Source: Pyrinomonadaceae bacterium
GTDB lineage: Bacteria > Acidobacteriota > Blastocatellia > Pyrinomonadales > Pyrinomonadaceae
Assembly: GCA_049799955.1 (NCBI GenBank)
Contig: JBARIW010000075.1
Location: 1 to 63,827 of the forward strand
DNA: 63,827 bases
Direction: 5' to 3'
Under the pieces are notes generated by a model. The model worked only from the letters and a program-made list of their open reading frames with translations. It was not told where the DNA came from and made no database searches. Shown here piece by piece: positions 883-57,387 of this stretch (positions are counted from its first letter, which is position 1; the number at the start of each line of letters is the position of its first letter). Made by a program: the position numbers and the translations under genes.

Positions 883-2802
883 ATGAATCAAGTACAAAAT
901 ATCGCTTTCCGTTTATTAACAGTTTTCTTTGTTTTGTTCTCGTGTTTTGCCGCCGCGACGCCGGCACAAGGTGAGCTTCAATCGGCACCGCCGCTGCCGG
1001 CGGGGATGACCGGTTCAAATATTAATGACCCGCGCTTCAAACTGTCGCCCGGATTGTACGATGCCGGTGAAGCCGCGATGGGCATCAAGCATCTGATGCT
1101 GCTCAAAAAGCCGGACGCCTTTCAGCTCGGCACCAACGACGCTGATAGTCCGAATGTACAAAAAACACTGGGTCTGCTCGGCATCGGCGACTCCTCGAAG
1201 ATGCCAAAGCCTTTCCAGTTAGTCATTGCCCAGCTCGCTTTTGCCAACTCGGACCTTGCGTTTCAGGGCAATTACCTGTTTCAGGGAAACTTTTACGGCG
1301 TCAGCATTTATGACATCTCTAATCCGTCGATGACCAAATTGCTGACCTCGATGGTGTGTCCGGGCGGGCAGGGCGACGTATCCGTTTACAAAAATCTGAT
1401 GTTTATGTCGGTCGAGATGCCGAACGGACGACTTGATTGCAGCGCGGAAGGTTTTCCGCCCCTGCCTCCGCCCGTTGCGGGACAGGAACACAAGCCGGAC
1501 GTGCAAAAAGACCGTTTCCGCGGAGTCAGAATTTTCGACATTTCCGACATCAGGAGTCCGAAGCAGGTCGGCGCGGTGCAAAGCTGTCGCGGCTCGCACA
1601 CGCATACGCTGGTAGTCGATCCGAAAGATAAGAATAACGTTTACATCTACGTTTCGGGCACATCTTTCGTCCGTCCGGGCGAAGAGCTGGCTGGATGCTC
1701 GGGTGAGACTCCGGACAAAAATCCGAATACGGCGCTCTTTCGCATCGACGTGATTAAGGTGCCGCTCGCGTCGCCGCAAACTGCAAAGATAGTGTCGAGT
1801 CCACGAGTATTTATGGATTCGAGAACCGGTGTTATTAACGGACTCAATAACGGTGGCTCACACGACAACCAAAACCCGTCCGATACCAACCAGTGCCACG
1901 ATATTACCGTGTATTCGGCAATCGGACTCGCTGCCGGCGCCTGTTCGGGCAATGGAATTCTGCTCGACATCAAAGACCCGGTCAATCCGAAGCGCGTTGA
2001 CGCGGTAAACGATCCGAACTACTCGTACTGGCACTCAGCCGCGTTTTCGAACGACGGGAAAAAGGTCGTGTTTACCGATGAATGGGGCGGCGGACTCGGC
2101 GCGCGCTGTCGCGCGAACGATCCGAATGTCTGGGGCGCGAATGCGATTTTCAATTTGGCGAATAATAAGCTGAGCTTCGCGAGCTATTACAAGCTGCCGT
2201 CGGCACAGGGCGACAGCGAGAACTGCGTCGCGCATAACGGCTCGCTCGTTCCGATTCCGGGGCGGGACGTTAAGGTACAAGCCTGGTATCAGGGCGGCAT
2301 CTCCATCATGGATTTCACAGACGCGAGCCATCCGATTGAGATTGCATATTTCGACCGTGGACCGATTGATCCGAAGATGCTCATACTCGGAGGCGACTGG
2401 TCGGCTTACTGGTACAACGGACACATTTACGCGTCGGAAATCGCGCGCGGCTTGGACATCTTTGAGCTGACGCCGACCGAGTTCCTGACGCAAAACGAAA
2501 TCGACGCCGCGAAAGCAGTTCGGGTGGCTGAATTGAACGTGCAGAATCAGCAGAAAATTGAGTATCCGCGAAACTTAGTCGTGGCGAAGGCATACATCGA
2601 CCAGATTGAGCGCTCGCAGGCTTTGCCCGCCGACCGAATCACAGTCCTGCGGGAAGCGATTCAAAAAGCGGAGAGTTCAAAATCTCTCGGAAAACTCAAA
2701 AAACTCGCGTCGCCGTTGGAAAAAGATGCTCTGACCAAGAGCGGAGCGGACTCAACTCGATTGCAGGCATTGGCTGAAATCTTAAAACGACCTGCGCTTT
2801 GA
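883..2802 (+). CDS. secreted beta-propeller protein with LVIVD-type repeats
   Basis: Long ORF. Start chosen at the Met preceding the signal peptide (MNQVQNIAFRLLTVFFVLFSCFAAATPAQG). Recurring 'xDISxPxxPKxV' motifs (YDISNPSMTKL, FDISDIRSPKQV, LDIKDPVNPKRV) are typical of LVIVD repeats. It lies 8 bp after the DUF305 gene. Confidence 0.6.
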   Translation: MNQVQNIAFRLLTVFFVLFSCFAAATPAQGELQSAPPLPAGMTGSNINDPRFKLSPGLYDAGEAAMGIKHLMLLKKPDAFQLGTNDADSPNVQKTLGLLGIGDSSKMPKPFQLVIAQLAFANSDLAFQGNYLFQGNFYGVSIYDISNPSMTKLLTSMVCPGGQGDVSVYKNLMFMSVEMPNGRLDCSAEGFPPLPPPVAGQEHKPDVQKDRFRGVRIFDISDIRSPKQVGAVQSCRGSHTHTLVVDPKDKNNVYIYVSGTSFVRPGEELAGCSGETPDKNPNTALFRIDVIKVPLASPQTAKIVSSPRVFMDSRTGVINGLNNGGSHDNQNPSDTNQCHDITVYSAIGLAAGACSGNGILLDIKDPVNPKRVDAVNDPNYSYWHSAAFSNDGKKVVFTDEWGGGLGARCRANDPNVWGANAIFNLANNKLSFASYYKLPSAQGDSENCVAHNGSLVPIPGRDVKVQAWYQGGISIMDFTDASHPIEIAYFDRGPIDPKMLILGGDWSAYWYNGHIYASEIARGLDIFELTPTEFLTQNEIDAAKAVRVAELNVQNQQKIEYPRNLVVAKAYIDQIERSQALPADRITVLREAIQKAESSKSLGKLKKLASPLEKDALTKSGADSTRLQALAEILKRPAL

Positions 2803-2819
2803 TTTTTTCGGCAGCGAAC

Positions 2820-3647
2820 TTAAATCGGAGACAAATCCGATTCTTTCCGTTGCAGCCAATTTTGCCCGGGATAGAAAGCTTTGCCGTCGATTGTATGAAT
2901 AGAATATGCCTGCCGCGACCGACCGCTCGTGTTGGGCAGGCTGTAATGAGGGAGCAAACCATCGAGAACGATGCAGGCTCCCTTTTTCACTTCGAGAGGT
3001 CGCATGCCTTCCGTTTCGAACGGAGTATTGTCAAAGGTTTGAAATTCCGTTCCGCCCGCATCTTTTCTTTTGAACCACGAACGCAAGTTGGTTCGGTGTC
3101 CTCCCGGCTTTGCCCACAGGCAGCCGTTTTCCGCGCTCGCGTCTTCGAGAGCAAACCAAAATCCGGTGCATGATTTGGGTTCGGTGTATAAAAAGGTAGA
3201 ATCCTGATGAACGTCCACCACGCCGCCGATTTGGGCGTGCTTGAAAATGTACATGCTTTGTATTATCAGAGCCCCGGACAATTCAAGCTCCGCAGCCAGC
3301 CTTTTCATCTGGGGCGACCGTGAAAATTTGTTGAAAACCGGGTCTAAATCATGCATTGCGTGTCCGATTTTGTTGAGCGAATGAAAAAGGTCGTTCTTAA
3401 GCCTGCCATTATCCCCGAATGCGTCCTTTTCGAAAAAGAAAGAGATTCGGTTGCCGGAGTTCAGAAAATAATCATCGCTGGTTCGCTCCTGCGCGGAGGT
3501 CTGAAAAACGGACGGATGCCCGTCATAATCAAAATTGGCTGTCAGTTCTGCCGCCCGATTTATCAGCTCATTACACTCCAATTCCGAATTGAACCCTTCA
3601 AGAATGAGAAACCCATCGCTCTGAAACTGTTCGAACTGTTTACCCAT
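2820..3647 (-). CDS. phytanoyl-CoA dioxygenase (PhyH) family Fe(II)/2-oxoglutarate oxygenase
   Basis: 275-aa ORF; the N-terminal 'FEQFQSDGFLILEGF' and overall pattern are typical of the PhyH family. Confidence 0.7.
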   Translation of the reverse strand: MGKQFEQFQSDGFLILEGFNSELECNELINRAAELTANFDYDGHPSVFQTSAQERTSDDYFLNSGNRISFFFEKDAFGDNGRLKNDLFHSLNKIGHAMHDLDPVFNKFSRSPQMKRLAAELELSGALIIQSMYIFKHAQIGGVVDVHQDSTFLYTEPKSCTGFWFALEDASAENGCLWAKPGGHRTNLRSWFKRKDAGGTEFQTFDNTPFETEGMRPLEVKKGACIVLDGLLPHYSLPNTSGRSRQAYSIHTIDGKAFYPGQNWLQRKESDLSPI

Positions 3648-3814
3648 AATATTTTTATAATAACTGAAACCGGAAAATGATTGCAGGTCAAATCGGGACG
3701 CGCAATCCGGGGCTGCGAGACAACGAATATACTGCTTAAAACTATCAAATGAGTAATCCGATTTAACATTCAGACACTAATATCTTATAACTGAAACTGT
3801 TAATATTAAAGACA

Positions 3815-5203
3815 ATGACTAAAACAAAAACAATTTCGCAAACCGAATCACCTTTAAATATCTCTTCGGAAATTGGTGAGAAAATCGTTCAGGACAATCT
3901 TGATTACACTTTATTTTCCTGGAGTAAACAAAAGGGAATAAATCCAATCGCAGTAAAACACGGCGAAGGAGTTTACCTGTTCGATTATGACGGCAAGCGT
4001 TATCTTGATTTTTCATCGGGGCTGATGAACGTCAATATCGGGCACGGCGACCAGAGAATAACTGAAGCGGTCATTAAACAGATGCGTGAGGTGAGCTATG
4101 TTACACCTTCCTGCGTTACAAAGGCGCGCGGCGAGCTGGGCAGGAAATTGGCGGAAATCTGTCCGGGCGATTTGAATAAGGCATTTTTTACCGTATGCGG
4201 CGCGTCTGCGATTGAAAATGCGATTAAGCTGGCAAGGCTTTATACGGGACGGCACAAGATACTGACGCGCTACCAGTCATACCACGGAGCTTCGAGCGGC
4301 GCGATGACGGCAAGCGGCGACCCGCGCAAACTTCCCGTTGATTCGCAGCAAGCGCCAAACTTCGTTCATTTTGACCTTCCGTATTTATACCGCTGGGAAT
4401 ACGGCGAAGAAAATTTATTGAAAGAAAGCGTAACAAGCCTCGAACGGATAATCGCTTATGAAGGCGCGGGCAACATCGCTGCTATTTTGCTCGAAGGCGA
4501 ATCAGGTTCGTCGGGCTGTCTGAAATATCCGGTCGGATATTTGCGGCAGGTTAGAGAAATATGCGACAAAAACGGCATTCTGCTGATAATAGACGAAGTG
4601 ATGAGCGGCTTTGGCAGGACGGGAAAGTGGTTTGGTTTTGAAAATCACGACATTGTGCCGGATATGATAGCGATGGCAAAAGGACTCACATCGGGTTATT
4701 TGCCTTTCGGCTGTTTGATGGTGTCGGAGAAAATAGCCGCAAAATATGATGAAACTATGCTGGCGTTGGGATTGACTTACTCTGCTCATCCGGTTTGCTG
4801 CGCCGCCGCTTTAGAAACATTGAAAATATATGAGGACGATAATTTAATCTTCAACGCCGCTGCGATGGGCGAATATGTGGATTCACAAGTCGAAAAATTA
4901 AAACAAAGTCATCCGAGCATCGGCGACTGGAGAAATACCGGACTTTTGGGCTGTCTCGAATTGGTAAAAAACAAAACCACCAAAGAGCCGATGGCGCCTT
5001 TTAATGCAAAACCCGACGAAATGAGCGTGATGAACAAAGTCGCGGCAAAAATCAGGGAATTAGGCATGTATACGTTTGTCAGGTGGAATTATATTTTTAT
5101 TGCTCCGCCGCTTTGCATCAGCAAGCCGCAGGTAGATGAAGGATTGGAGATAATCAGCGAGGCAGTCAAGCTTGCCGATGAATATACAAATTCTTTAAGT
5201 TGA
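3815..5203 (+). CDS. class-III (PLP-dependent) aminotransferase
   Basis: 462 aa, aspartate-aminotransferase-fold class III pattern (…DEVMSGFGRTGKWFGFE…, …MAKGLTSGYLP…). Confidence 0.85.
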   Translation: MTKTKTISQTESPLNISSEIGEKIVQDNLDYTLFSWSKQKGINPIAVKHGEGVYLFDYDGKRYLDFSSGLMNVNIGHGDQRITEAVIKQMREVSYVTPSCVTKARGELGRKLAEICPGDLNKAFFTVCGASAIENAIKLARLYTGRHKILTRYQSYHGASSGAMTASGDPRKLPVDSQQAPNFVHFDLPYLYRWEYGEENLLKESVTSLERIIAYEGAGNIAAILLEGESGSSGCLKYPVGYLRQVREICDKNGILLIIDEVMSGFGRTGKWFGFENHDIVPDMIAMAKGLTSGYLPFGCLMVSEKIAAKYDETMLALGLTYSAHPVCCAAALETLKIYEDDNLIFNAAAMGEYVDSQVEKLKQSHPSIGDWRNTGLLGCLELVKNKTTKEPMAPFNAKPDEMSVMNKVAAKIRELGMYTFVRWNYIFIAPPLCISKPQVDEGLEIISEAVKLADEYTNSLS

Positions 5204-5400
5204 AGACGTTCGGGTTAATTAAAAAAGCAAATAAACATCTCCAGCCGAACAACGATTTCCGGTTTTACGAGCTGGAATTTAAGCGCGGGTAAGAGGCGCG
5301 CAGTTTTGTAAACTCGACAAGTCTTGCCCTGTGTGTCAAAATTCGTGTAATATAAACAACTTTATTACACGATTTAATTTAAGGAGATTTTTTAAAATAG

Positions 5401-5637
5401 ATGTCAGCAGAAAACGCAGCAGAAACGGCGACGGACGCGAATAATACAGCCGCCGAAACCACAGAAACTACAGAAACCACAACCGAGCATCAGCAGGATG
5501 TTTCCTATCACGCGGTCGAAAAAGACGGCGACGTAACGGCAATCTGGGAAATGCAGGGACAAAAACACCTTCGCACAATCGACCCGCGCTCGAACGAAGG
5601 AAAACAAATTCTCGCGCTGTTTGAAACGGCAGGGTAA
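5401..5637 (+). CDS. small acidic hypothetical protein (Thr/Glu-rich N-terminus)
   Basis: 78-aa ORF with a good SD (aaggag, 14 nt upstream of ATG), followed directly by the hairpin at 5642-5720. Confidence 0.5.
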   Translation: MSAENAAETATDANNTAAETTETTETTTEHQQDVSYHAVEKDGDVTAIWEMQGQKHLRTIDPRSNEGKQILALFETAG

Positions 5638-5641
5638 AAAT

Positions 5642-5720
5642 AGTGAACAACGAAAAGTGAATAGTGAATAGTGAAGAAAAAATCTTTCACTGTTCACTAT
5701 TCACTTTTCGCTGTTCACTT
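5642..5720. repeat. palindromic hairpin built from tandem heptamers (AGTGAAY x3 / RTTCACT x4); terminator-like between convergent genes
   Basis: agtgaacaacgaaaagtgaatagtgaatagtgaag-aaaaaatc-tttcactgttcactattcacttttcgctgttcactt; overlaps the stop codon of the minus-strand gene 5715..7124. Confidence 0.85.
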
Positions 5721-7124
5721 TCTGAAATTTTCCCAGTCGCCCCAGACCGCGAATGTCGCGCCGACGTTTTGGAGATTGAAGAATAATATTTTGCCGTCTT
5801 TTGAAAAGGTCGAACCGGCAAATTCGCTGGTTTCGAGCTTCGGCGTGATGTTTTTGGCAAAATCGGCAATACGCCCGTCCGGTGTTAAAATTTTCATATA
5901 ATTTTCCGGCGAGCCGCCCGCTCCGGCATAATCGCTGTCTTCGCAGATAAAAAGATGGTTACTTTTCGGGCGCATATACATATTGTCGGGCATATCCAGA
6001 ATTTCGCGGCTCGGCGATTCGAACAGCAAAGTAAGGCGTCCTTCGTCTCTGCTTAAAGGTTCATACATCCAGATTTGCCCGCCGCCGTTGTCGCCGCCGC
6101 TGGTCGAATCAAAATAAATCCTTCCTTTTTTATCGGCAAAACTGCCTTCCAGACGCAGAAATATCGCCGCGTCTTTCGCTTGTCCCTGTTTCTGCACGGC
6201 GAACGGGTCGGTATCTGCTTCCGCCGGGTCGGAATTATCAATCGTTATCCAGTTTGTGATAAGACTTGTTCCGGCTTTCTGACCCTTTCGGGTGTCGTAA
6301 TTCGGTTTATCTTTAACCGCGAGCATCTGCAAAATGCCGCCTTCAGCCAGACGTTTGTTGCGTTTCGGTAAAAAGCGGTAAAATCCGGCGGGCGTCTGGT
6401 CTTCGGTCATGTAAACGACGCCGGAATTTTTATCGACCGCGATGGTTTCGTGTTCAAAACGTCCCATCGCCTTGAGCGGCACAGGCGAGACGGGCGAATT
6501 TGCCGAAGCCGAAACCTCGAAGCAATAACCGTGCGGCTTGGCAAATCCGCCTGTTTGTTTGCCTTTTTTGTCGGTTCTGACGGTTTGTCCGAGCGTCGTT
6601 TCCTCGCACGAAATCCAGCTTCCCCAGGGCGTTCTGCCGCCGCTGCAATTTACCAGAGTTCCGCTCAGGCTGACAAAATCGCGGACGATTTCGCGTGTTT
6701 TCGGATTGATAACGAGCGTCGTCGTGCCGCCGCCAGCCGTTTCGTCGTACGGATTTGCGCCGATTGGCGAACCCGGAATCGGGACTTTTCCGTTTGTAAT
6801 TTCGTGATTGCGAACGACTCGAAGCTCTCCGCGCACCTTAAAAGCCGCCATTCCGTCGTGTTTCGCGGGCGTGCTGTTTTTGTCCGTCATCGGGCTGCCA
6901 ATCTTTCCGATGACGTTGTATTCAAAATCTTTCGGCAACGCAAGGTAAGTTTCGCCCGTATTTTTTGCCGCAACGGGAACGAGCTCGCCGTAGCCGTAAG
7001 CTTTGAAATTCGACAAATCTCCCGTCTGCGCGAAAACTTCGGCGCGCCTTGTCAGACTGCCGCTCGCCAACGCCAAACCGCCCGAAAATAAGCCTAAACG
7101 ATATAAAAATGAGCGTCTGTCCAT
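5715..7124 (-). CDS. phoX: PhoX-family (DUF839) secreted phosphatase with Tat signal
   Basis: N-terminus MDRRSFLYRLGLFSGGLALASG (RRxFL twin-arginine motif). Internal 'NCSGGRTPWGSWISCEE' matches the PhoX/DUF839 signature. Confidence 0.7.
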   Translation of the reverse strand: MDRRSFLYRLGLFSGGLALASGSLTRRAEVFAQTGDLSNFKAYGYGELVPVAAKNTGETYLALPKDFEYNVIGKIGSPMTDKNSTPAKHDGMAAFKVRGELRVVRNHEITNGKVPIPGSPIGANPYDETAGGGTTTLVINPKTREIVRDFVSLSGTLVNCSGGRTPWGSWISCEETTLGQTVRTDKKGKQTGGFAKPHGYCFEVSASANSPVSPVPLKAMGRFEHETIAVDKNSGVVYMTEDQTPAGFYRFLPKRNKRLAEGGILQMLAVKDKPNYDTRKGQKAGTSLITNWITIDNSDPAEADTDPFAVQKQGQAKDAAIFLRLEGSFADKKGRIYFDSTSGGDNGGGQIWMYEPLSRDEGRLTLLFESPSREILDMPDNMYMRPKSNHLFICEDSDYAGAGGSPENYMKILTPDGRIADFAKNITPKLETSEFAGSTFSKDGKILFFNLQNVGATFAVWGDWENFRK

Positions 7125-50284: not shown

Positions 50285-52978
50285 ATGACAGGAAACGAAG
50301 TTAGACAAAGATTTATAAAATATTTCAATGAGCGCGGTCACAAAATCGTCCATTCCAGCCCGGTTTACCCGCCGGACGACCCGACGATTTTGTTCACCAA
50401 CGCGGGAATGAACCAGTTCAAAGATGTTTTTCTCGGCAACGAGCGGCGCGATTATAAACGCGCTGTTACAAGTCAGAAGTGTCTTCGCGCGGGCGGAAAG
50501 CACAACGACCTCGACGAAGTCGGGAAAACGGCGCGGCATCTGACATTTTTCGAGATGCTCGGCAATTTTTCCTTCGGCGATTATTTCAAGGAAGATGCGA
50601 TAAATTTCGCGTGGGATTATCTCGTTAATGAATTAAAGCTCGATAAAAACCGCCTCTGGTTCACGGTTTTCGGCGGCGACGAAGAAGTTGCGGCTGATGA
50701 AGAAGCCGTCGAGCTTTGGATAAAAGCCGGCGCATCGCCCGACCGTATTTTGCGTTTCGGACGGAAAGATAATTTCTGGCAGATGGCTGACATCGGACCT
50801 TGCGGACCGAGTTCGGAAATCAATTACTATCTGGGCGAAGAGCCGAAAAATCCCGAAAAAAACCGACCCGAATTTGTCAATGCCGACACGGGCGACACGA
50901 CGATGGAAATCTGGAATCTGGTTTTCATGCAGTACAACCGCCTCGAAGACGGAAACGGCGGCTTTCGCCTTGAGCCTCTGCCCGCGCCGTCGGTTGACAC
51001 GGGAATGGGCTTGGAAAGATTTACGACTGTTATTAACGGCTTTGATAGTGTTTACGAAACCGACATTATCAAGCCGATTATCAATTTTATCGCCGAGCTT
51101 GCGGGCAAAGAATACGTTTACGAATCGACGGAAGGCTTTGCCATGCGCGTCGTCGCCGACCACGCGCGCTCGGCGGCTTTTTCAATCACCGACGGAATTT
51201 TGCCCGGCAACGAAGGCAGAAGCTACGTTCTCCGCAAAATAATGCGCCGCGCCATCTATCACGGGCGCGAGCATCTCGGATTCAGCGATTCGTTTTTTTA
51301 CAAAGTCTGCGATTTTGTCGTTGACCAGATGAAAGACGCTTATCCCGAACTCGAAACACAGCGCGAATTCATCAGTAAAATGGTGCGGTTGGAGGAAGAG
51401 AAATTTGGCGCGACGATGACTGTCGGATTACAAAAGCTCAGCGAGTTTTTTGCTAAAAGCAGCGAAGCTGATTTCACCGAATTTGCCAAACTTTACGATA
51501 CTTTTGGAACGCCGCGCGATTTGGTGCGCGTTAAACTGGAAGAAAAAGGAATCGAAATCGGTGAAGAAGAATTTAACAAAAAATTTGATACGGCTTTGCA
51601 GGAAATTCAATCGCAGAGCGCGGTAGGAAAAACCGAGCGTAAATCGGTTGTAAGTCCGATTTATCACGAAATCGCGGAAAAAGTCGGCGCGAATCAGTTT
51701 CACGGCTATGAAACGACGCAGTTTGAAGAGGCGAAAGTTGTCGCTTTGCTCAAAAATGAACAGGAAGCGCAAGAGCTCGCGGAAGGCGAAGAAGGTTTAA
51801 TCGTTTTGTCTGAGACGCCTTTTTACGCCGAATCGGGCGGGCAGGTCGGCGATACGGGATTTTTGTTGAATGAAGCGACGAAGGCGAAAGTTCAGGACAC
51901 TTTCTCGCCCGTCGCGGGTTTGATTCTGCATAAATCGAAAGTTGAAAAAGGCTCGATTAAGGTCGGCGATGTGGTAATGGCGACGGTTGACACGGAAAAA
52001 CGCGACGCGACAAGGCGTAATCATACGGCGACGCATCTGGTTCACGCGGCGCTCAAGGAAGTCGTCGGAACGCACGTCAAGCAAGCCGGTTCGGTCGTCG
52101 CGCCGAACTATTTAAGATTTGATTTCACGCATTATCAGGCTTTGAGCGAAGACGAGATTAAGGAAATCGAGGATTTGGTCAACCGCGAGATTTTGAAAAA
52201 CGACGCGGTGAACACGAACGTGATGGCGATTGAAGAAGCGATGCGAACCGGCGCGGTCGCGCTTTTCGGCGAAAAATACGGCGCTGACGTTCGCGTTTTG
52301 AGCGTCGGCGAAGGCGTTTTTTCAAAAGAACTTTGCGGCGGAACGCACGTTCGGGCGACGGGCGACATCGGCTCGTTTAAAATCACTTCGGACGAGGCGA
52401 TTGCTTCGGGCGTGCGCCGAATCCGCGCGATTACGGGCTTTGATGCGTTCGAGCGTTTCCGCGAAGACGAAAATTTAATCGACAAATCGCTTCAGGCGCT
52501 CAGAACTCAGCGCGATAATCTGCCGTCGGCGATTGAAAAATTGCAGGAAGAATTAAAACGCTTCAAGCGCGAAAACGACGAGCTGAAAATGAAAATCGCC
52601 ACCGGCGCAATCGGAACGGCTCCATCAAATGGCGATGAGGCGAAAGATGTAAACGGTGTGAAGGTTCTGGCGAAAACGGTCGAAGGCTTGGACAAAGGCG
52701 GAATGCGTCATTTGTCCGACACGCTTCTGGCAAAAATGAAATCCGGCGTGGTCGTTCTGGCGCGAACCGAGGAAGACAAAGTTTCGTTTATCGTGCGCGT
52801 ATCGGACGATTTGACCGACCGCGTGAAAGCAGGAAAAATCGTGCAGGAAATCGCGCCGATTGTCGGCGGTCGCGGCGGCGGCAAACCCGACATGGCGGAA
52901 GGCGGCGGAACGGACGCGAGCAAATTAAACGACGCTTTACAGGCAAGTTACGGTGTCGTCGAGAAAATGTTAGACTAA
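50285..52978 (+). CDS. alaS: alanine--tRNA ligase
   Basis: 897 aa; 'RQRFIKYFNERGHKIVHSSPV…LFTNAGMNQFKDVFLG' is canonical AlaS. Confidence 0.95.
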   Translation: MTGNEVRQRFIKYFNERGHKIVHSSPVYPPDDPTILFTNAGMNQFKDVFLGNERRDYKRAVTSQKCLRAGGKHNDLDEVGKTARHLTFFEMLGNFSFGDYFKEDAINFAWDYLVNELKLDKNRLWFTVFGGDEEVAADEEAVELWIKAGASPDRILRFGRKDNFWQMADIGPCGPSSEINYYLGEEPKNPEKNRPEFVNADTGDTTMEIWNLVFMQYNRLEDGNGGFRLEPLPAPSVDTGMGLERFTTVINGFDSVYETDIIKPIINFIAELAGKEYVYESTEGFAMRVVADHARSAAFSITDGILPGNEGRSYVLRKIMRRAIYHGREHLGFSDSFFYKVCDFVVDQMKDAYPELETQREFISKMVRLEEEKFGATMTVGLQKLSEFFAKSSEADFTEFAKLYDTFGTPRDLVRVKLEEKGIEIGEEEFNKKFDTALQEIQSQSAVGKTERKSVVSPIYHEIAEKVGANQFHGYETTQFEEAKVVALLKNEQEAQELAEGEEGLIVLSETPFYAESGGQVGDTGFLLNEATKAKVQDTFSPVAGLILHKSKVEKGSIKVGDVVMATVDTEKRDATRRNHTATHLVHAALKEVVGTHVKQAGSVVAPNYLRFDFTHYQALSEDEIKEIEDLVNREILKNDAVNTNVMAIEEAMRTGAVALFGEKYGADVRVLSVGEGVFSKELCGGTHVRATGDIGSFKITSDEAIASGVRRIRAITGFDAFERFREDENLIDKSLQALRTQRDNLPSAIEKLQEELKRFKRENDELKMKIATGAIGTAPSNGDEAKDVNGVKVLAKTVEGLDKGGMRHLSDTLLAKMKSGVVVLARTEEDKVSFIVRVSDDLTDRVKAGKIVQEIAPIVGGRGGGKPDMAEGGGTDASKLNDALQASYGVVEKMLD

Positions 52979-52998
52979 TCTCGCAATTTAAAATTTAA

Positions 52999-53053
52999 GG
53001 CTTTGCCTGAGAACTAGCACTTGCCCGAAAAGTGCTTAACCTTGCCCGAAAAC
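52999..53053. repeat. left boundary repeats of the alaS-downstream islet: GGCTTTGCCTGAGAACT (inverted copy at 55967..55983) plus GAGAACT-N-TTGCCCGAAAA(C) direct-repeat units (two TTGCCCGAAAA copies)
   Basis: 52999-53015 ggctttgcctgagaact; 53016-53036 hairpin agcacTTGCCCGAAAagtgct; 53042-53053 ttgcccgaaaac. Confidence 0.7.
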
Positions 53054-53439
53054 TACCATTTAAGATTTAGGTCTGATACTTTTGATGCTCTTATTGCTAT
53101 ATCAAAGCTAATATCATCAGTTCTTGTTGATTCAAGATGACACTCGTTTCTACATTCTGGATGCATATATGAAGCGCAATATTTTGAAACGGTGGCGTAG
53201 AGAGTAGCGAATGGATAAACGGTATCACCTATCCAAATCATACGAAACGCCTTACTTCGCTTTTCGCCTTGCTGATGAGCAATTTTTGCAATTTTTTGCA
53301 GGTCTAAGAGTTGGACTTCAATCCACTCAGGCAAATTATTTATTACTTCTTTCTCGCCAGAAGTATCTTCCTGAGTAAAACAAGGAATCCCGCCTGTTAT
53401 TAAACCCTCAAACGACATTTCAAAAGTGATTTTATCCAT
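53053..53439 (-). CDS. hypothetical protein (128 aa), second gene of a two-gene module with the Zn-ribbon protein
   Basis: ORF 4 bp downstream of 53443..53634 on the same strand; no recognisable family. Confidence 0.45.
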   Translation of the reverse strand: MDKITFEMSFEGLITGGIPCFTQEDTSGEKEVINNLPEWIEVQLLDLQKIAKIAHQQGEKRSKAFRMIWIGDTVYPFATLYATVSKYCASYMHPECRNECHLESTRTDDISFDIAIRASKVSDLNLKW

Positions 53440-53442
53440 AGC

Positions 53443-53634
53443 TTACTTCTCAGATTTTACGATTTTACGCGGTTTGTTCCAATACGGGCTTTTGCACTTC
53501 GGGCAAACCGCAGGCTCGTTCTCAATATCACGCGGAATCCAAACGTGATTGCACCTCTCACAGGTATTTCTCCAGACTGTTATTTTTTCTCTTGCCACAA
53601 AATCAAATATATACCTAAAATAATATACTGTCAA
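53443..53634 (-). CDS. small zinc-ribbon protein (C-x2-C-x15-C-x2-C; YgiT/MqsA-type ribbon-like)
   Basis: 63 aa from a TTG start; 'CERCNHVW…CPKCKSPYW'. A palindrome gtcaacc-aagttctt-ggttgac overlaps its start. Confidence 0.4.
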   Translation of the reverse strand: MTVYYFRYIFDFVAREKITVWRNTCERCNHVWIPRDIENEPAVCPKCKSPYWNKPRKIVKSEK

Positions 53635-53639
53635 CCAAG

Positions 53640-55090
53640 TTCTTAGGTTGACTTACTGCTATACCTATAGTAATATAGTTAAGGTAGTTAAATTAAATCT
53701 TTTGAGGTATTTAAGCGATGAACGAACAACGAATTTTAGAAAGAAAACAACGCGGTTATGACATCTCCCAAAGATACACGATTCGACAAGACGGTAATTT
53801 CTGGTTTGTTCCGTCAAGCAAAAGCGGAAAGTATAAAGTCGATTTGAAACGGCAGACCTGCAACTGTATGGATTTTGAAACACGAAAAATGAAGTGCAAA
53901 CATCTTTGGGCGGCAGAATTTCACTACGAGCGCGAAGTTTTAAAAGCTATTGATGATGTTCCCGAAGCTGTTAAAGAAGTTCCGAAGAAAAGAACTTATG
54001 CGCAACCGAATTGGTCTGCATATCACAAATCGCAGACTTGCGAAAAAGGGCAATTCCTTTACCTTTTGCGAGAACTTACCAAAGGAATTGAAAGCCCGAC
54101 TCAAAAGACTGGCAGAACGCGGCATAATTTCTCGGATTTGATTTTCTCAATGTGTTACAAAGTTTATTCGTGCTTTAGCTCACGCCGCTTTATGACAGAC
54201 CTTAAAACCGCTTTTGATACTAACTACCTTGAACGGCTTCCGAGCTACAATTCACTAATCGAAGCGTTTTCTCTGGAAGAAATCACGCCTTTACTGCATT
54301 ACTTAATCGAAATGAGTTCTTTGCCGCTTGCGGCAATCGAAAAGGATTTCTGCGTTGATTCGACTGGACTTTCAACGTGTCGTTTCTATCGTTGGTTTCA
54401 CGCGAAATACACAGATAAGCGATTGATTGACCACAGAGATTGGGTAAAACTTCACGCGATGTCGGGCGCGAAAACGAACGTCATTACAGCCGTTGAAATT
54501 TCAAACCGATACGAACACGATTCTAATTACTTCAAACCGCTTGTTGATAAAACGGCTCTGAGATTTGCGATTGATGAAGTCAGCGCAGATAAGGCGTATT
54601 CAAGCGAAAAGAATATGCAGACCGTTTTGAATCACGGCGCGATACTCTTTCATCGCTTTCAAGAAAAACGCGACCTCTGGGCACTTCTACACGGGCGAGA
54701 CTTGGAAAAACTGCTTTCACTACTACTCGCTGAATCAAGAGAAATTCCTACAGCACTACCACAAAAGAAGTAACGCCGAAACTGTTTTCAGTATGATAAA
54801 AGCGAAATTTGGTGATTCTTTGAGAAGCAAAACGGAAACGGCTCTGATTAACGAAACTTTAGCGAAAGTCGTTTGTCATAACATCTGCGTTTTAATAACG
54901 AGTATGCACGAATTAGGATTAAAGCCGAAGTTTCGGGAAAACTTAAAGTAGAACGTTAGACTACACTATATGTAGTGTACCACGAATGAGACAACGTATT
55001 GACTTTAAAGGGCTTTGAGAGAATAATAAAGGCTAGGTTGTTGTAGCAACCTAGCCTAGAACCTGTTAGCGGGTGCAAAACAAGTAGGGC
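53640..55090 (+). mobile_element. IS element (IS4/IS5-superfamily DDE transposase with N-terminal SWIM zinc finger), probably inactive; ends uncertain
   Basis: Transposase ORF plus about 150-bp flanks. Imperfect terminal inverted-repeat candidates are …caaGTTCTTAGGTTGac (left, 53636-53652) and caGGTTCTAGGctaggttg (right, reverse complement of about 55040-55075). AT-rich. Confidence 0.45.
53718..54951 (+). pseudogene. frameshifted DDE transposase (SWIM zinc finger 'CNCMDFETRKMKCKHLW' + DDE_Tnp_1-like core)
   Basis: The ORF 53718..54773 carries the D…D region (…FCVDSTGLS…, …ADKAYSS…). The conserved C-terminus (…GHFYTGETWKNCFHYYSLNQEKFLQHYHKRSNAETVFSMIKAKFGDSLRSKTETALINETLAKVVCHNICVL…) is in the +1 frame from about 54636 to the stop at 54949-54951. 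Confidence 0.6.
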
Positions 55091-55348
55091 GCGACCTAAG
55101 CTTAATTTAAGCATTTCGTTCTCTTTTGTCAAGAAGGAATCAACCGCTTCGGTTTATATCTACTCTCTTTAACTAACAGGTTCACCAAAAAGGTAAACAA
55201 CTACAATCAACGGCGACGCTAGTATTTTCACCTGCTTTCTAGGTCAGAAAGTAAAGAACTAGCTTAGCGATGCGTCGGAATTGCTCGACGTTATTGCGAC
55301 AATCGTTTGTGTGTAGGCGACCTATTTTTTAGGGAGAAGAAACATATT

Positions 55349-55688
55349 ATGAAATATGTAAATTTGTACGAAGTGCGAGACTATCTACCCTTTTAAAGGG
55401 ACTGACGAGGCAACTAAACTTGCCGTTTGGGAAAAAGGTGCGCCGCTATCAGACAAGGATGAGAAAGGCAATTTGTTATATCATCCTGCCGTATGGCGGC
55501 GCGATGCGTGTGGACACGCTATGCGTTATACCGACCACGGAAATACTAATTCCGAGTTTGGTTGGGAAATCGACCACATTTACCCAGAAGCGCGTGGCGG
55601 TAAAACTGTATTGGGTAATTTACAGCCTTTATATTGGAAAACTAATCGCCAAAAAAGCGATACTTATCCTTGGTCTTGTGAGGATTGA
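55349..55688 (+). pseudogene. HNH endonuclease (~113 aa) disrupted by a 1-nt frameshift in a T4A3 homopolymer run
   Basis: SD aggga + ATG at 55349 gives MKYVNLYEVRDYLPF*. The HNH domain (…CGHAMRYTDHGNTNSEFGWEIDHIYPEARGGKTVLGNLQPLYWKTNRQKSDTYPW) is open in the +1 frame from 55362. Removing one T in cccTTTTaaaggg (55388-55400) restores one ORF. Confidence 0.6.
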
Positions 55689-55870
55689 ATGACGGACGTA
55701 GATACTTTCAGATACACAATGTCTTGAAAGTCATCGTAAACAGGCTCTACATATAACCCGAAATTAAGTAAGGTTTTGTAGAGCCTTTCATTTCGCGCCC
55801 ATTTATCCAGATGAATCGGAAATGTTTCTTCTATCGGTTTTGTTTCGTTCTGTTCTACTTTGATACTCAT
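55664..55870 (-). CDS. hypothetical small protein
   Basis: 68-aa ORF, no SD; overlaps the HNH 3' end. Confidence 0.3.
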   Translation of the reverse strand: MSIKVEQNETKPIEETFPIHLDKWARNERLYKTLLNFGLYVEPVYDDFQDIVYLKVSTSVIQSSQDQG

Positions 55871-55924
55871 ATTTATTTGTTACGCAAAAACTGTGCTATT
55901 GTTTGAATAAATTGAATTTTGACC

Positions 55925-55983
55925 GAGAACTGTTTAAGATTGCCCGAAAACAAGTGGAATTTTTGGAGTTCTCAGGCAAAGCC
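55925..55983. repeat. right boundary repeats of the islet: GAGAACT-N8-TTGCCCGAAAAC (direct copy of left boundary) followed by AGTTCTCAGGCAAAGCC (inverted copy of 52999..53015)
   Basis: 55925-55931 gagaact; 55940-55951 ttgcccgaaaac; 55967-55983 agttctcaggcaaagcc. Confidence 0.7.
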
Positions 55984-56004
55984 AAAATTTAAGGAGAAAA
56001 AACT

Positions 56005-56334
56005 ATGAATGCAGCAGGTATGACTTTTGTTCTCACCGGGGTTTATTCGGTTCTACAGATGCCGTTTTATCAATCAATCGTAACGAACGGCAGCGTTTCT
56101 CAGAGTGAATTTGACGGAACGGCAAAAGATTTAAACAGTATTATCACGACTTTGAAAAACACGCCCGGAGATAAAATCGAGGCGATGGTTGAACAGTATA
56201 ATAATGAACTGACCAACCACCTTAACAACTTTAACAGCGGATGGGGAAGCGATTTGCTCGCCGCATTCAGAGAAGCGCAGACGATGGTGGGATTTGTTAC
56301 GTCGGTTATGGCAAAATCCGGTATTTCAGATTAG
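56005..56334 (+). CDS. hypothetical small helical protein
   Basis: 109 aa, strong SD (aaggag) 8 nt upstream of ATG. Confidence 0.5.
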   Translation: MNAAGMTFVLTGVYSVLQMPFYQSIVTNGSVSQSEFDGTAKDLNSIITTLKNTPGDKIEAMVEQYNNELTNHLNNFNSGWGSDLLAAFREAQTMVGFVTSVMAKSGISD

Positions 56335-56367
56335 GCGATTTATAGAAATCCAATAAGGTTGGTAAAG

Positions 56368-57387
56368 TTATTCCGAAGCCGGTAATGCCCGGCAGTCTGT
56401 TTTCGACGTTTGAGATTCGTGAATCTCGATTTTCTCTTCCGAATTGCCTTCGTCTTTGTTCTCCGATGTTATCAGCACGACCGAGCCGACAATCACGCCC
56501 GCGCCGACGAGCATTTGTCCCGTAAATGATTCGCCCGCGATGAGCCAGCCGAGAAAAACGGCGATAATCGGGTTGACATAGGCATAAGTCGCAACCATTG
56601 CGGGCTGCGCGTTTTTTAAGAGCCAACTGTAAGCCGTAAAGCTGATGAGCGAGCCGAAAATGATTAGATAAACGAGTCCGAGCCACGAATTTGCCGAAAC
56701 CTGAGCGATATTAAAATTCGACCATTCGCCCAAAATTAAACTCACGAAAAGCAAAACCAAGCCGCCCGAAAACATCTGCATTCCCGCCGTTTGAATCGAA
56801 GATTTGGGAACGGGCGAGCGCAGACCGTAAATCGAGCCGGTCGCCCACGAAAGAGCCGCGACAATGACGGCAATCGTGCCGAAAAGCTGCATCGAACCGG
56901 AATCTGTCGATTCGACGCCTTCCGCCTGACCGTTGATTAAAAACCACACGCCGAAAAATCCGATTGCAATTCCCAAAACTGCTTTCAGATTCGGTCGCGC
57001 GCCTTTCAGCCAGAGCCAGCTTAAAAGTACAATCCAGAAAGGCTCGGTGGCGACGAGAAGCGCGGCGAGACTCGACGAAATATAGTGTTCGGCAAAGACT
57101 ACGCCGCCGTTTCCGCCCAGAAGCAGAAGCGTTCCGACGATAAAGCTCGTTTTCCAATGCGCGGCTTTCGGGCGTTCGTAATCTTTGGCAAATCTCGCCC
57201 AAAGCATCAGAATCGCGCCCGCAAAAGTGAATCTCGCGCCCGCCATCAGAAACGGCGGAAGCGTTTCAATCGCGTATTTAATCGCCAGATAAGTCGAACC
57301 CCAGAAGATATAAACCGCCGCAAACGCCGCGATTAATAAAATCAGGCTGCGGTTAGGATTAATTTTTGTGATTTGTGTGTTCTGCAT
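56368..57387 (-). CDS. EamA/DMT-family transporter
   Basis: 339 aa, 10 TM, two EamA-like halves. Confidence 0.85.
   Translation of the reverse strand: MQNTQITKINPNRSLILLIAAFAAVYIFWGSTYLAIKYAIETLPPFLMAGARFTFAGAILMLWARFAKDYERPKAAHWKTSFIVGTLLLLGGNGGVVFAEHYISSSLAALLVATEPFWIVLLSWLWLKGARPNLKAVLGIAIGFFGVWFLINGQAEGVESTDSGSMQLFGTIAVIVAALSWATGSIYGLRSPVPKSSIQTAGMQMFSGGLVLLFVSLILGEWSNFNIAQVSANSWLGLVYLIIFGSLISFTAYSWLLKNAQPAMVATYAYVNPIIAVFLGWLIAGESFTGQMLVGAGVIVGSVVLITSENKDEGNSEEKIEIHESQTSKTDCRALPASE

What the first reader, a model, noticed from the sequence alone, without database searches (positions are those of the whole stretch)
52999..55983. About 2.9-kb AT-rich islet downstream of alaS bounded by att-like direct repeats and a 17-bp inverted repeat
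Both borders carry GAGAACT-N(6-8)-TTGCCCGAAAA(C): left at 53009-53031, plus a second TTGCCCGAAAAC at 53042; right at 55925-55951. The 17-mer GGCTTTGCCTGAGAACT (52999-53015) also recurs as a perfect inverted copy (55967-55983). Between them lie a Zn-ribbon gene and a 128-aa unknown gene (an operon with a palindrome over the start), a SWIM-DDE transposase, a ~110-aa HNH endonuclease and a 68-aa ORF, all in AT-rich DNA. Both the transposase and the HNH gene are frameshifted. Direct repeats at both ends are what site-specific integration leaves behind, but no integrase is present. The inverted 17-mers could instead mark an invertible segment or a composite element. The gene content (Zn-ribbon + unknown partner, HNH) resembles small defence or toxin-antitoxin cargo modules. 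I do not recognise the Zn-ribbon/128-aa pair as any described system.
Basis: partly seen in the sequence, partly recalled or inferred. Interest (0 to 1): 0.65.

Follow-up and report, generated by a model that had tools for sequence, protein, structure and literature searches.

The report
Decayed IS903-like transposon carrying passenger genes
The AT-rich islet after alaS is one 2,985-bp DDE transposon with 17-bp terminal inverted repeats and a 9-bp target-site duplication; it belongs to an apparently unnamed IS903-related family from Acidobacteria that always carries passenger genes, often defence genes.

Summary
The repeats are real, but they are transposon ends, not att sites. The 17-mer and its inverted copy are the terminal inverted repeats (TIRs) of one element, 52999-55983. 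The "att-like" repeats are subterminal copies of a 12-mer that is also part of the TIR.

Elements with homologous SWIM-DDE transposases (43-70% identity) in 25 other contigs share the terminus GGCTTTGCC, a 9-bp TSD and three sites per end. All are 2.9-6.7 kb, so all carry passengers. These include Rosmer-like RmrA, GmrSD, restriction-modification, MazF and Panacea genes.

The nearest named relatives are IS903-group elements such as ISAba13, with the same GGCTTTG tip and 9-bp duplication (hhalign 97%).

The Zn-ribbon gene is a frequent core partner of the transposase, not a partner of the 128-aa protein. p128 and the HNH/68-aa pair are passengers. The transposase and HNH genes are each frameshifted, so this copy cannot move by itself.

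In other contigs the elements stack in tandem, separated by the same 9 bp.

I found no description of the family in the literature I could search, so I rate it a new variant of a known kind, of moderate interest.

The parts
52990..52998 (.). Left copy of the 9-bp target-site duplication, AAAATTTAA
   Evidence: Identical to 55984-55992 and abuts the TIR. 25 sister elements have their own 9-bp TSDs, 23 of them perfect and 2 with one mismatch.
52999..53015 (+). Left terminal inverted repeat, GGCTTTGCCTGAGAACT. It contains terminal 12-mer site 1 (53003-53014).
   Evidence: Perfect inverted copy at 55967-55983. The tip GGCTTTGCC is conserved in 48 termini and GGCTTTG is shared with ISAba13.
53021..53053 (+). 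Left subterminal sites 2 and 3: TTGCCCGAAAAG at 53021-53032 and TTGCCCGAAAAC at 53042-53053. This is an A-type end, with all three sites in the same orientation.
   Evidence: sites at positions 5, 23 and 44 from the terminus. The same layout is seen across the family.
53053..53439 (-). p128, a passenger gene of unknown function, 4 nt downstream of the Zn-ribbon gene on the same strand
53443..53598 (-). Zn-ribbon protein (51 aa from GTG 53598; the mechanical ORF runs to 53634). It is a frequent core partner of the transposase.
   Evidence: CxxC...CxxC-KSPYWNxPR homologues lie divergent and immediately upstream of the transposase in 29 of 72 loci by strict motif and in 36 loci by tblastn.
53599..53717 (.). 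Divergent control region. The palindrome GTCAACC-N9-GGTTGAC (53630-53652) is two back-to-back -35 boxes. P(zn) is TTGACA-17-TATATT on the minus strand; P(tnp) is TTGACT-17-TAATAT on the plus strand. The direct repeat TATACCTA-N3-TAATATA occurs twice.
   Evidence: 11/12 and 9/12 promoter matches; D8; conserved in L083, L130, L109, L093.
53718..54951 (+). SWIM-DDE transposase pseudogene. One extra base near 54645-54650 splits it into 351-aa and 52-aa ORFs.
   Evidence: PF01609 and SWIM. The repaired 410 aa match 411-aa homologues at 65-70% identity and 100% coverage. NF033579 scores 116 bits over the full profile. hhalign to ISAba13 Tnp gives 97.2%. The YREK motif YHKRSNAETVFSMIK can be read from the sequence.
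54952..55348 (.). 397-nt non-coding spacer between the transposase and HNH genes
   Evidence: No Rfam family. No homologue in the fetched loci. Fold z-scores -3.2 (plus) and -2.8 (minus). Promoter-like and terminator-like sites.
55349..55688 (+). Small HNH endonuclease gene, frameshifted near 55385. A passenger.
   Evidence: PF01844. The intact homologue in L106 reads YVYPFK..LAVW in one frame.
55664..55870 (-). p68, a 68-aa gene convergent with HNH and overlapping it by 25 nt. The passenger partner of HNH.
   Evidence: A 54%-identical homologue sits in the same position next to HNH in L106. No family hit.
55919..55951 (+). Right subterminal sites: TTGACCGAGAAC at 55919-55930 and TTGCCCGAAAAC at 55940-55951. 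This is a B-type end, with these two sites inverted relative to the terminal site.
   Evidence: positions 33 and 54 from the right terminus.
55967..55983 (-). Right terminal inverted repeat (AGTTCTCAGGCAAAGCC on the plus strand)
55984..55992 (.). Right copy of the 9-bp target-site duplication, AAAATTTAA

Best explanation
The islet is a single unit transposon, a 'transporter IS', of 2,985 bp (52999-55983). It inserted by DDE transposition into the 32-nt spacer between the alaS stop codon and the start of a 109-aa gene.

Shown:
- 17-bp perfect TIRs, flanked by a perfect 9-bp TSD.
- A SWIM-DDE transposase homologous to IS903-group transposases.
- Three copies of a 12-mer at each end, arranged differently at the two ends.
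- A Zn-ribbon gene transcribed divergently from the transposase.
- Passenger genes on both sides of this core: p128 on one side, HNH plus p68 on the other.

Inferred mechanism:
- The transposase binds the terminal and subterminal 12-mers, plausibly through its N-terminal SWIM zinc finger.
- It pairs the ends, excises the element and joins it to 9-bp staggered cuts in the target, as in IS903.
- The Zn-ribbon protein probably regulates or assists transposition from the shared promoter region.

This copy has frameshifts in both the transposase and the HNH gene. It is therefore non-autonomous and could move only if an intact transposase were supplied in trans. The perfect TIRs and TSD suggest a fairly recent insertion.
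For: Boundaries:
- TIR 17/17 and TSD 9/9 abutting it.
- The reconstructed empty site is alaS-TAA-...AAAATTTAA-GGAG-N8-ATG.

Family:
- 25 other complete elements, 2,904-6,653 bp, carry transposases 43-70% identical to this one. All have a GGCTTTGCC-type tip and their own 9-bp TSD, 23 perfect and 2 with one mismatch.
- Each has three element-specific sites per end, at positions 5/23/43 or 5/33/53 from the terminus.
- The transposase family is large: 5,389 proteins at E<=1e-10, about 410 aa when intact, mostly annotated PF01609 plus PF04434. C48, C50, C60 and H62 are invariant.

Link to IS903:
- hhalign 97.2% to the ISAba13 transposase.
- The IS903-group model NF033579 matches over its full length, at 116 bits.
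- ISAba13 ends in GGCTTTGTTGCA.
- IS903B makes 9-bp repeats (PMC9769513).

Accessory status:
- L003 and L006 keep alaS-eamA-lrp-aldh without the islet.

Zn-ribbon linkage.
Against: - No empty site from a conspecific genome was available. The closest relative has only 83% AlaS identity.
- The transposase scores below NCBIfam's curated cut-off for the IS903-type model (116 against 140 bits).
- No transposition has been observed.
- DNA binding by the SWIM domain and the role of the Zn-ribbon protein are inferences.
- The rest of the genome could not be searched for an intact copy.
- The Logan contig that confirms the frameshifts is 100% identical over 4,875 bp and comes from one sample, so it is probably not independent evidence.
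Confidence: 0.9

Rival explanations
1. A genomic islet integrated by site-specific recombination. The GAGAACT-N-TTGCCCGAAAAC repeats would be attL and attR cores, and the integrase has been lost.
For: The 33-nt direct repeat near both borders is real (82% identity), and its core occurs nowhere else in the window.
Against: - No integrase or recombinase is present.
- The repeats lie 22-65 nt inside the boundaries set by the TIR and TSD.
- Every sister element has its own version of these repeats, matched to its own TIR and present three times per end. Att cores would not behave this way.
- A functional-type DDE transposase gene sits inside.
Confidence: 0.03
2. An invertible DNA segment bounded by the 17-bp inverted repeats.
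For: A perfect 17-bp inverted repeat 2.95 kb apart.
Against: - No invertase is present.
- The same inverted termini bound 25 other elements, at different sites and with different contents, each flanked by direct 9-bp TSDs.
Confidence: 0.02
3. The Zn-ribbon protein and p128 form a novel two-gene toxin-antitoxin or defence system, and that is the real point of the islet.
For: - The two genes are 4 nt apart on the same strand.
- p128 is a rare family with no annotation.
- Its homologues sit beside a PemK toxin gene or a Dcm/HNH/Vsr cluster.
- Sister elements carry many defence genes.
Against: - The Zn-ribbon gene co-occurs with the transposase in 29-36 loci, whatever gene lies downstream of it.
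- Neither of the two p128 homologue contexts examined has a Zn-ribbon or this transposase.
- p128 has no PADLOC hit.

p128 may still be a defence or toxin-antitoxin component on its own.
Confidence: 0.07

Closest known systems
IS903 group of the IS5 family (IS903/IS903B, ISAba13)
   Same: - The DDE transposase is homologous end to end with the IS903-type model NF033579.
- The termini start GGCTTTG.
- The target duplication is 9 bp.
- The YREK motif is present.
   Different: - The transposase is about 100 aa longer, with an N-terminal SWIM zinc finger, and scores below the curated cut-off (116 against 140 bits).
- The elements are 2.9-6.7 kb, not about 1.05 kb.
- They often carry a second conserved gene (the Zn-ribbon).
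- Each end has three binding-type repeats, arranged asymmetrically, rather than one IR.
- Passenger genes are always present.
Transporter IS (tIS) or unit transposons with passenger genes
   Same: The passenger genes lie inside one pair of IRs, and the whole unit is flanked by one TSD. This matches the definition in PMC9330008 and PMC3129680.
   Different: In the 26 complete elements examined, cargo is the rule rather than the exception, and it is dominated by defence, toxin-antitoxin and regulator genes rather than resistance genes.
Tn7-like transposons and phage Mu ends
   Same: Works alike in three respects:
- Left and right ends differ and each has several transposase-site repeats.
- The cargo is defence-rich.
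- Heterologous elements stack in tandem, separated by the same TSD (Tn7 literature found).
   Different: There are no TnsA/B/C/D or MuA/B homologues. A single IS4/IS5-type DDE protein is present. The TSD is 9 bp, not 5 bp.

Membership tests
IS5 family, IS903 group | DDE (PF01609) transposase that matches the IS903-type model | tested here: inconclusive
   NF033579 aligns over profile positions 2-287 of 289 but scores 116 bits, below the 140 cut-off. ISAba13 scores 400 bits. hhalign gives 97.2% probability and 26% identity over 279 columns.
IS5 family, IS903 group | Terminal inverted repeats beginning GGC(TTTG) | tested here: met
   The window TIR is GGCTTTGCCTGAGAACT. 46 of 48 family termini start with G, and positions 2-3 and 5-7 are invariant (GC, TTG). 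ISAba13 ends in GGCTTTGTTGCA.
IS5 family, IS903 group | 9-bp target-site duplication | tested here: met
   The window has AAAATTTAA twice. The 25 other elements each have a 9-bp TSD. IS903B makes a 9-bp repeat (PMC9769513).
IS5 family, IS903 group | Compact element of about 1 kb with a single transposase ORF (ISfinder description, from memory) | tested here: not met
   This element is 2,985 bp with six genes. Sister elements are 2.9-6.7 kb.
Transporter IS / unit transposon | Passenger genes unrelated to transposition lie inside one pair of IRs, and the whole unit is flanked by one TSD | tested here: met
   p128, HNH and p68 lie between the TIRs, and the TSD flanks the unit. Definition.
   None found among the ORFs of 52999-55983.
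   The 33-nt repeats are internal to the TIRs. The boundary repeat is the 9-bp TSD.
Invertible segment | Invertase gene, or evidence of both orientations | tested here: not met
   No invertase is present. Read-level orientation could not be tested.
Two-gene Zn-ribbon/p128 system | Conserved co-occurrence of the two genes | tested here: not met
   p128 homologues in L170-L173 have no Zn-ribbon neighbour. Zn-ribbon homologues sit beside the transposase, with varied downstream genes.
Known anti-phage defence systems (PADLOC) | A profile match for p128, the Zn-ribbon protein, HNH or p68 | tested here: not met
   Only weak Cas9 HNH-domain hits for the HNH fragment (E about 0.01). Nothing for the other three.

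The most novel reading that the evidence does not exclude
The window element is a decayed member of an undescribed lineage of IS903-related transposons, seen here mainly in Acidobacteria. The lineage has four distinguishing features:
1. A SWIM-domain transposase with a Zn-ribbon partner gene.
2. Asymmetric ends with three sites each.
3. Obligate, defence-rich cargo.
4. A habit of inserting into the very 9 bp that flank a resident element, which builds tandem arrays of different cargo transposons.

If so, these elements would be a transposon-driven route to defence islands, analogous to Tn7-like arrays but achieved with a single IS-type transposase.
Probability: 0.45. Interest if true: 0.6.

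Novelty: new variant of a known kind. Interest (0 to 1): 0.45.

Why it matters
For this window, an apparent integrase-less island becomes a precisely delimited and explained transposon insertion. Annotation can now separate the core genes (transposase and Zn-ribbon) from the passengers (p128, HNH/p68).

More broadly, the window points to a large family, so far named only 'transposase' by source annotations. The family combines IS903-type chemistry with multi-site asymmetric ends, constant cargo and same-site tandem stacking. It could be a significant vehicle for spreading defence and toxin-antitoxin genes among soil Acidobacteria. It is also a tractable single-protein system for studying cargo transposition and reuse of target sites.

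Tried and rejected
- **Split terminator.** My first idea was that the 17-bp inverted repeat was the stem of an alaS terminator hairpin split by an insertion in its loop. This was prompted by long hairpins after alaS in L003 and L006. I rejected it once the same termini, each with its own 9-bp TSD, turned up at unrelated sites.
- **Rfam.** An E-value scan of 52500-56500 gave only a chance hit (E 0.66).
- **Word-indexed protein searches.** Searches with p128 and p68 found only the query itself.
- **Single-sequence AF2 of p128.** The model was useless (pLDDT 41). The model built from an alignment worked.
- **Structure searches with p128.** Foldseek against PDB and BFVD gave nothing at E<=0.001. 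The afdb50 library was unavailable.
- **PDB sequence searches.** Queries with the HNH and Zn-ribbon proteins gave only marginal hits.
- **The 397-nt spacer.** It has no homologue in any fetched locus, so covariation could not be tested.
- **An internal motif.** TTTCGGGAAAACTTAA at 54931-54947 (I7/I17) lies in the conserved C-terminal coding sequence of the transposase. I treat it as coincidental.
- **Literature.** Searches for a SWIM/IS5/IS4 cargo transposon or for tandem arrays with shared TSDs found nothing on this family. ISfinder itself could not be consulted.
Full report
**1. Observation**

- The 17-mer GGCTTTGCCTGAGAACT (52999-53015) and its perfect inverted copy (55967-55983) are the only two matches in the window, even allowing 3 mismatches. 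None of 100 shuffles gave two matches.
- Exact TTGCCCGAAAA occurs only at 53021, 53042 and 55940.
- The direct repeat extends to 33 nt at 82% identity, 53021-53053 against 55919-55951.
- GC drops to 0.34-0.45 inside, against 0.49-0.57 in the flanking genes.
- The ORFs are as listed: a 128-aa ORF, a Zn-ribbon ORF, a DDE_Tnp_1 transposase with a SWIM finger, an HNH fragment and a 68-aa ORF.

The 9 bases just outside each inverted repeat are identical and direct: AAAATTTAA at 52990-52998 and at 55984-55992.

**2. Host and setting**

The window comes from a Pyrinomonadaceae (Acidobacteriota) MAG. The closest available genomes keep the order alaS-eamA-lrp-aldh.
- L003 (AlaS 83% identical) has a Uma2-family gene between alaS and eamA.
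- L006 (69%) has only 116 bp there.

The islet and the adjacent 109-aa gene are therefore accessory, and the alaS-eamA spacer is a variable spot. No genome close enough to give an exact empty site was available.

**3. What it is**

The repaired transposase has thousands of relatives: 5,389 proteins at E<=1e-10. Intact ones are about 410 aa and most carry PF01609 plus PF04434. I fetched DNA around homologues and found the window's border features at unrelated sites.
- I delimited 25 other complete elements, 2,904-6,653 bp long.
- Each starts GGCTTTGCC (or a one-base variant) and ends with the inverted copy.
- Each is flanked by its own 9-bp direct repeat, perfect in 23 and with one mismatch in 2.
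- Examples: L085 1717-5310 with CAATTCTCG, and L088 2273-5944 with AAAAACCTG.

The window islet is therefore one transposon. It has 17-bp TIRs and a 9-bp target-site duplication. It sits in the 32-nt spacer between the alaS stop codon and the ribosome-binding site of the 109-aa gene.

**4. The 'att-like' repeats**

Reading inward from each terminus, family members carry three copies of an element-specific 12-14-mer. The first copy is part of the TIR.
- One end has sites at about positions 5, 23 and 43, all in the same orientation (A-type).
- The other end has sites at about 5, 33 and 53, with the two inner ones inverted (B-type).
- In the window the left end is A-type (53003, 53021, 53042). 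The right end is B-type (55979, 55951 and 55930, reading inward).

On the plus strand, all four subterminal sites therefore point the same way. The transposase gene can lie in either orientation relative to the A and B ends in different elements.

**5. Relationship to known elements**

Several results link the element to the IS903 group.
- The nearest annotated relative in the plasmid collection is ISAba13, an IS5-family element of the IS903 group (25% identity over 85% of the query).
- Profile comparison gives 97.2% probability over 279 columns.
- The NCBIfam model that ISAba13 hits at 400 bits (NF033579) aligns with residues 98-389 of the repaired transposase over its whole length. The score is 116 bits, below the 140-bit cut-off.
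- ISAba13 ends in GGCTTTGTTGCA, and IS903B makes 9-bp target repeats (PMC9769513).
- The transposase carries the Y-x2-R-x3-E-x6-K motif (YHKRSNAETVFSMIK).
- It has invariant C48/C50/C60/H62, the CxC...CxH pattern typical of SWIM fingers (my reading), in its extra N-terminal 95 residues.

The element thus shares transposase type, terminus tip and TSD length with IS903. It differs in domain architecture, size, end structure and gene content. It fits the published concept of a transporter IS, or unit transposon.

**6. Core genes and passengers**

*Zn-ribbon gene.* A homologue (consensus MAKVKxTVWxYxCERCxHxWxPR..EPxxCPxCKSPYWNxPR) lies immediately upstream of the transposase and divergent from it. 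This holds in 29 of 72 loci by a strict motif and in 36 loci by tblastn. It is a frequent core gene, not cargo.

*Control region.* In the window, the Zn-ribbon gene most likely starts at GTG 53598. This lies about 7 nt after a strong promoter match (TTGACA-17-TATATT, 11/12), so the mRNA may be leaderless. The palindrome GTCAACC-N9-GGTTGAC is the two back-to-back -35 boxes of the divergent Zn-ribbon and transposase promoters. The whole control region is conserved in L083, L130, L109 and L093.

*p128.* This is a passenger.
- The family is small: 19 representatives in 1.84 billion proteins.
- The AF2 model is confident (pLDDT 91).
- Homologues elsewhere lie next to a kinase and a PemK toxin gene (L170), or a Dcm/HNH/Vsr cluster (L172). 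No Zn-ribbon or transposase is nearby.

*HNH/p68.* This pair recurs, with HNH intact, in the same position between the transposase and the right end in L106. It is therefore a real two-gene passenger module of unknown role.

*Cargo of sister elements.* It is highly variable; most ORFs have no relative in the other elements. It is rich in defence and toxin-antitoxin functions:
- HTH plus M78 peptidase proteins that match PADLOC RmrA (Rosmer) profiles
- GmrSD
- a 918-aa Eco57I-like methyltransferase
- type II restriction enzymes
- Vsr
- PemK/MazF
- SocA-Panacea
- capP/capH
- HEC-06

One element even carries a tRNA-Ala gene.

**7. State of this copy**

- The transposase has one extra base in the catalytic core, near 54645-54650. 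This is not at a plausible programmed-frameshift site.
- The HNH gene is frameshifted near 55385.
- The element cannot move by itself.
- The perfect TIRs and TSD argue that insertion was fairly recent.
- The only other assembly containing it is 100% identical and comes from one sample, so it does not independently exclude assembly errors.

**8. Mechanism**

Shown: the TIRs, the TSD, the homologous DDE transposase and the multi-site ends.

Inferred from IS903 and IS4/IS5 biology:
- cut-and-paste transposition with 9-bp staggered target cleavage
- recognition of the 12-mers by the SWIM domain
- a regulatory or accessory role for the Zn-ribbon protein, acting at the divergent promoters

**9. Family behaviour seen in passing**

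Different elements of the family are often stacked head to tail, separated by exactly their shared 9-bp TSD.
- 15 junctions of the form CAAAGCC-N9-GGCTTTG have exactly 9 nt, against 0-2 at each other spacing from 0 to 30 nt. Spacings of 17, 18 and 25 nt together account for 5 junctions, each made of two or three copies of the TSD.
- 11 of 25 complete elements have an abutting neighbour.
- The clearest case is L104, with three elements all separated by GTGCCATAG.

Several outermost flanks share conserved sequences directly after the TSD, for example ATAATATGTATTATCAGACGC in 7 loci. This implies reuse of the same 9-bp target next to a resident end or a landing site. It resembles Tn7-like arrays but involves a single IS-type transposase. 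The window element itself is solitary.

**10. Verdict**

- The interpretation as an att-bounded or invertible islet, and as a novel Zn-ribbon/p128 system, is not supported.
- The idea of mobile, defence-like cargo is supported at the family level.
- The element is a decayed member of an IS903-related family of cargo transposons. I found no description of this family in the searchable literature, but ISfinder could not be checked.
- I rate it a new variant of a known kind, with interest 0.45.

Noticed in passing
L104 29-10734; L103 4721-8936; L131 3184-12047; L083 6761-6771; L143 376-7647; L085 1707-1717: Elements of this family stack in tandem, separated by exactly the shared 9-bp TSD. There are 15 CAAAGCC-N9-GGCTTTG junctions, and 11 of 25 complete elements have an abutting neighbour. 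The neighbours are different elements with their own transposases. This implies repeated insertion into the same 9 bp next to a resident end.
   Followed up: partly
L096 9243-9259; L150 5763-5787; L130 457-481; L094 6872-6900; L102 3890-3911; window 52985-52998: Next to some elements lie extra, element-free copies of the TSD, overlapping by 1-2 nt (for example CAAAGAAT-CAAAGAATC). They look like footprints of earlier insertion and excision at the same site. The window's left flank, AATTTAA-AATTTAA, is only a weak hint of the same thing.
   Followed up: partly
L127 7294-7314; L128 4124-4144 (reverse); L131 12048-12068; L146 9317-9337; L150 9569-9589; L167 1769-1789; L136 (reverse of 1560-1580): A conserved sequence of about 21 nt, ATAATATGTATTATCAGACGC, follows directly after the otherwise variable TSD in 7 loci. 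A second motif, GrTACnnnnTACACAGTGGATAC, does so in about 8 others. These could be landing sites or the ends of other element families.
   Followed up: no
window 56005-56334; L003 10814-11302; L006 10754-10870: The alaS-eamA spacer varies between relatives. The window has an orphan 109-aa gene there in addition to the transposon. L003 has a Uma2-family endonuclease gene. L006 has nothing.
   Followed up: partly
window 54952-55348: The 397-nt non-coding spacer between the transposase and HNH genes folds better than shuffles (z -3.2 plus strand, -2.8 minus strand). On the minus strand it holds a promoter-like site (55132-55104) followed by a strong terminator-like hairpin (55057-55030), which could give a transcript of about 75 nt. 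There is no Rfam match and no homologue in the fetched loci.
   Followed up: partly
window 53596-53634: The Zn-ribbon gene appears to be leaderless. Its best promoter match ends about 7 nt before the GTG start that homologues support. The annotated TTG start at 53634 lies inside the -35 box.
   Followed up: partly
[not shown]
   Followed up: no
L088 3483-3556: A tRNA-Ala(TGC) gene lies inside a complete sister element (2273-5944, TSD AAAAACCTG), just upstream of its transposase. This is an unusual passenger.
   Followed up: no
L106 3198-3300: The L106 element that carries the intact HNH/p68 pair ends with a variant tip (GGCTATG...). It is followed, after 9 nt, by the left end of another element.
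   Followed up: no
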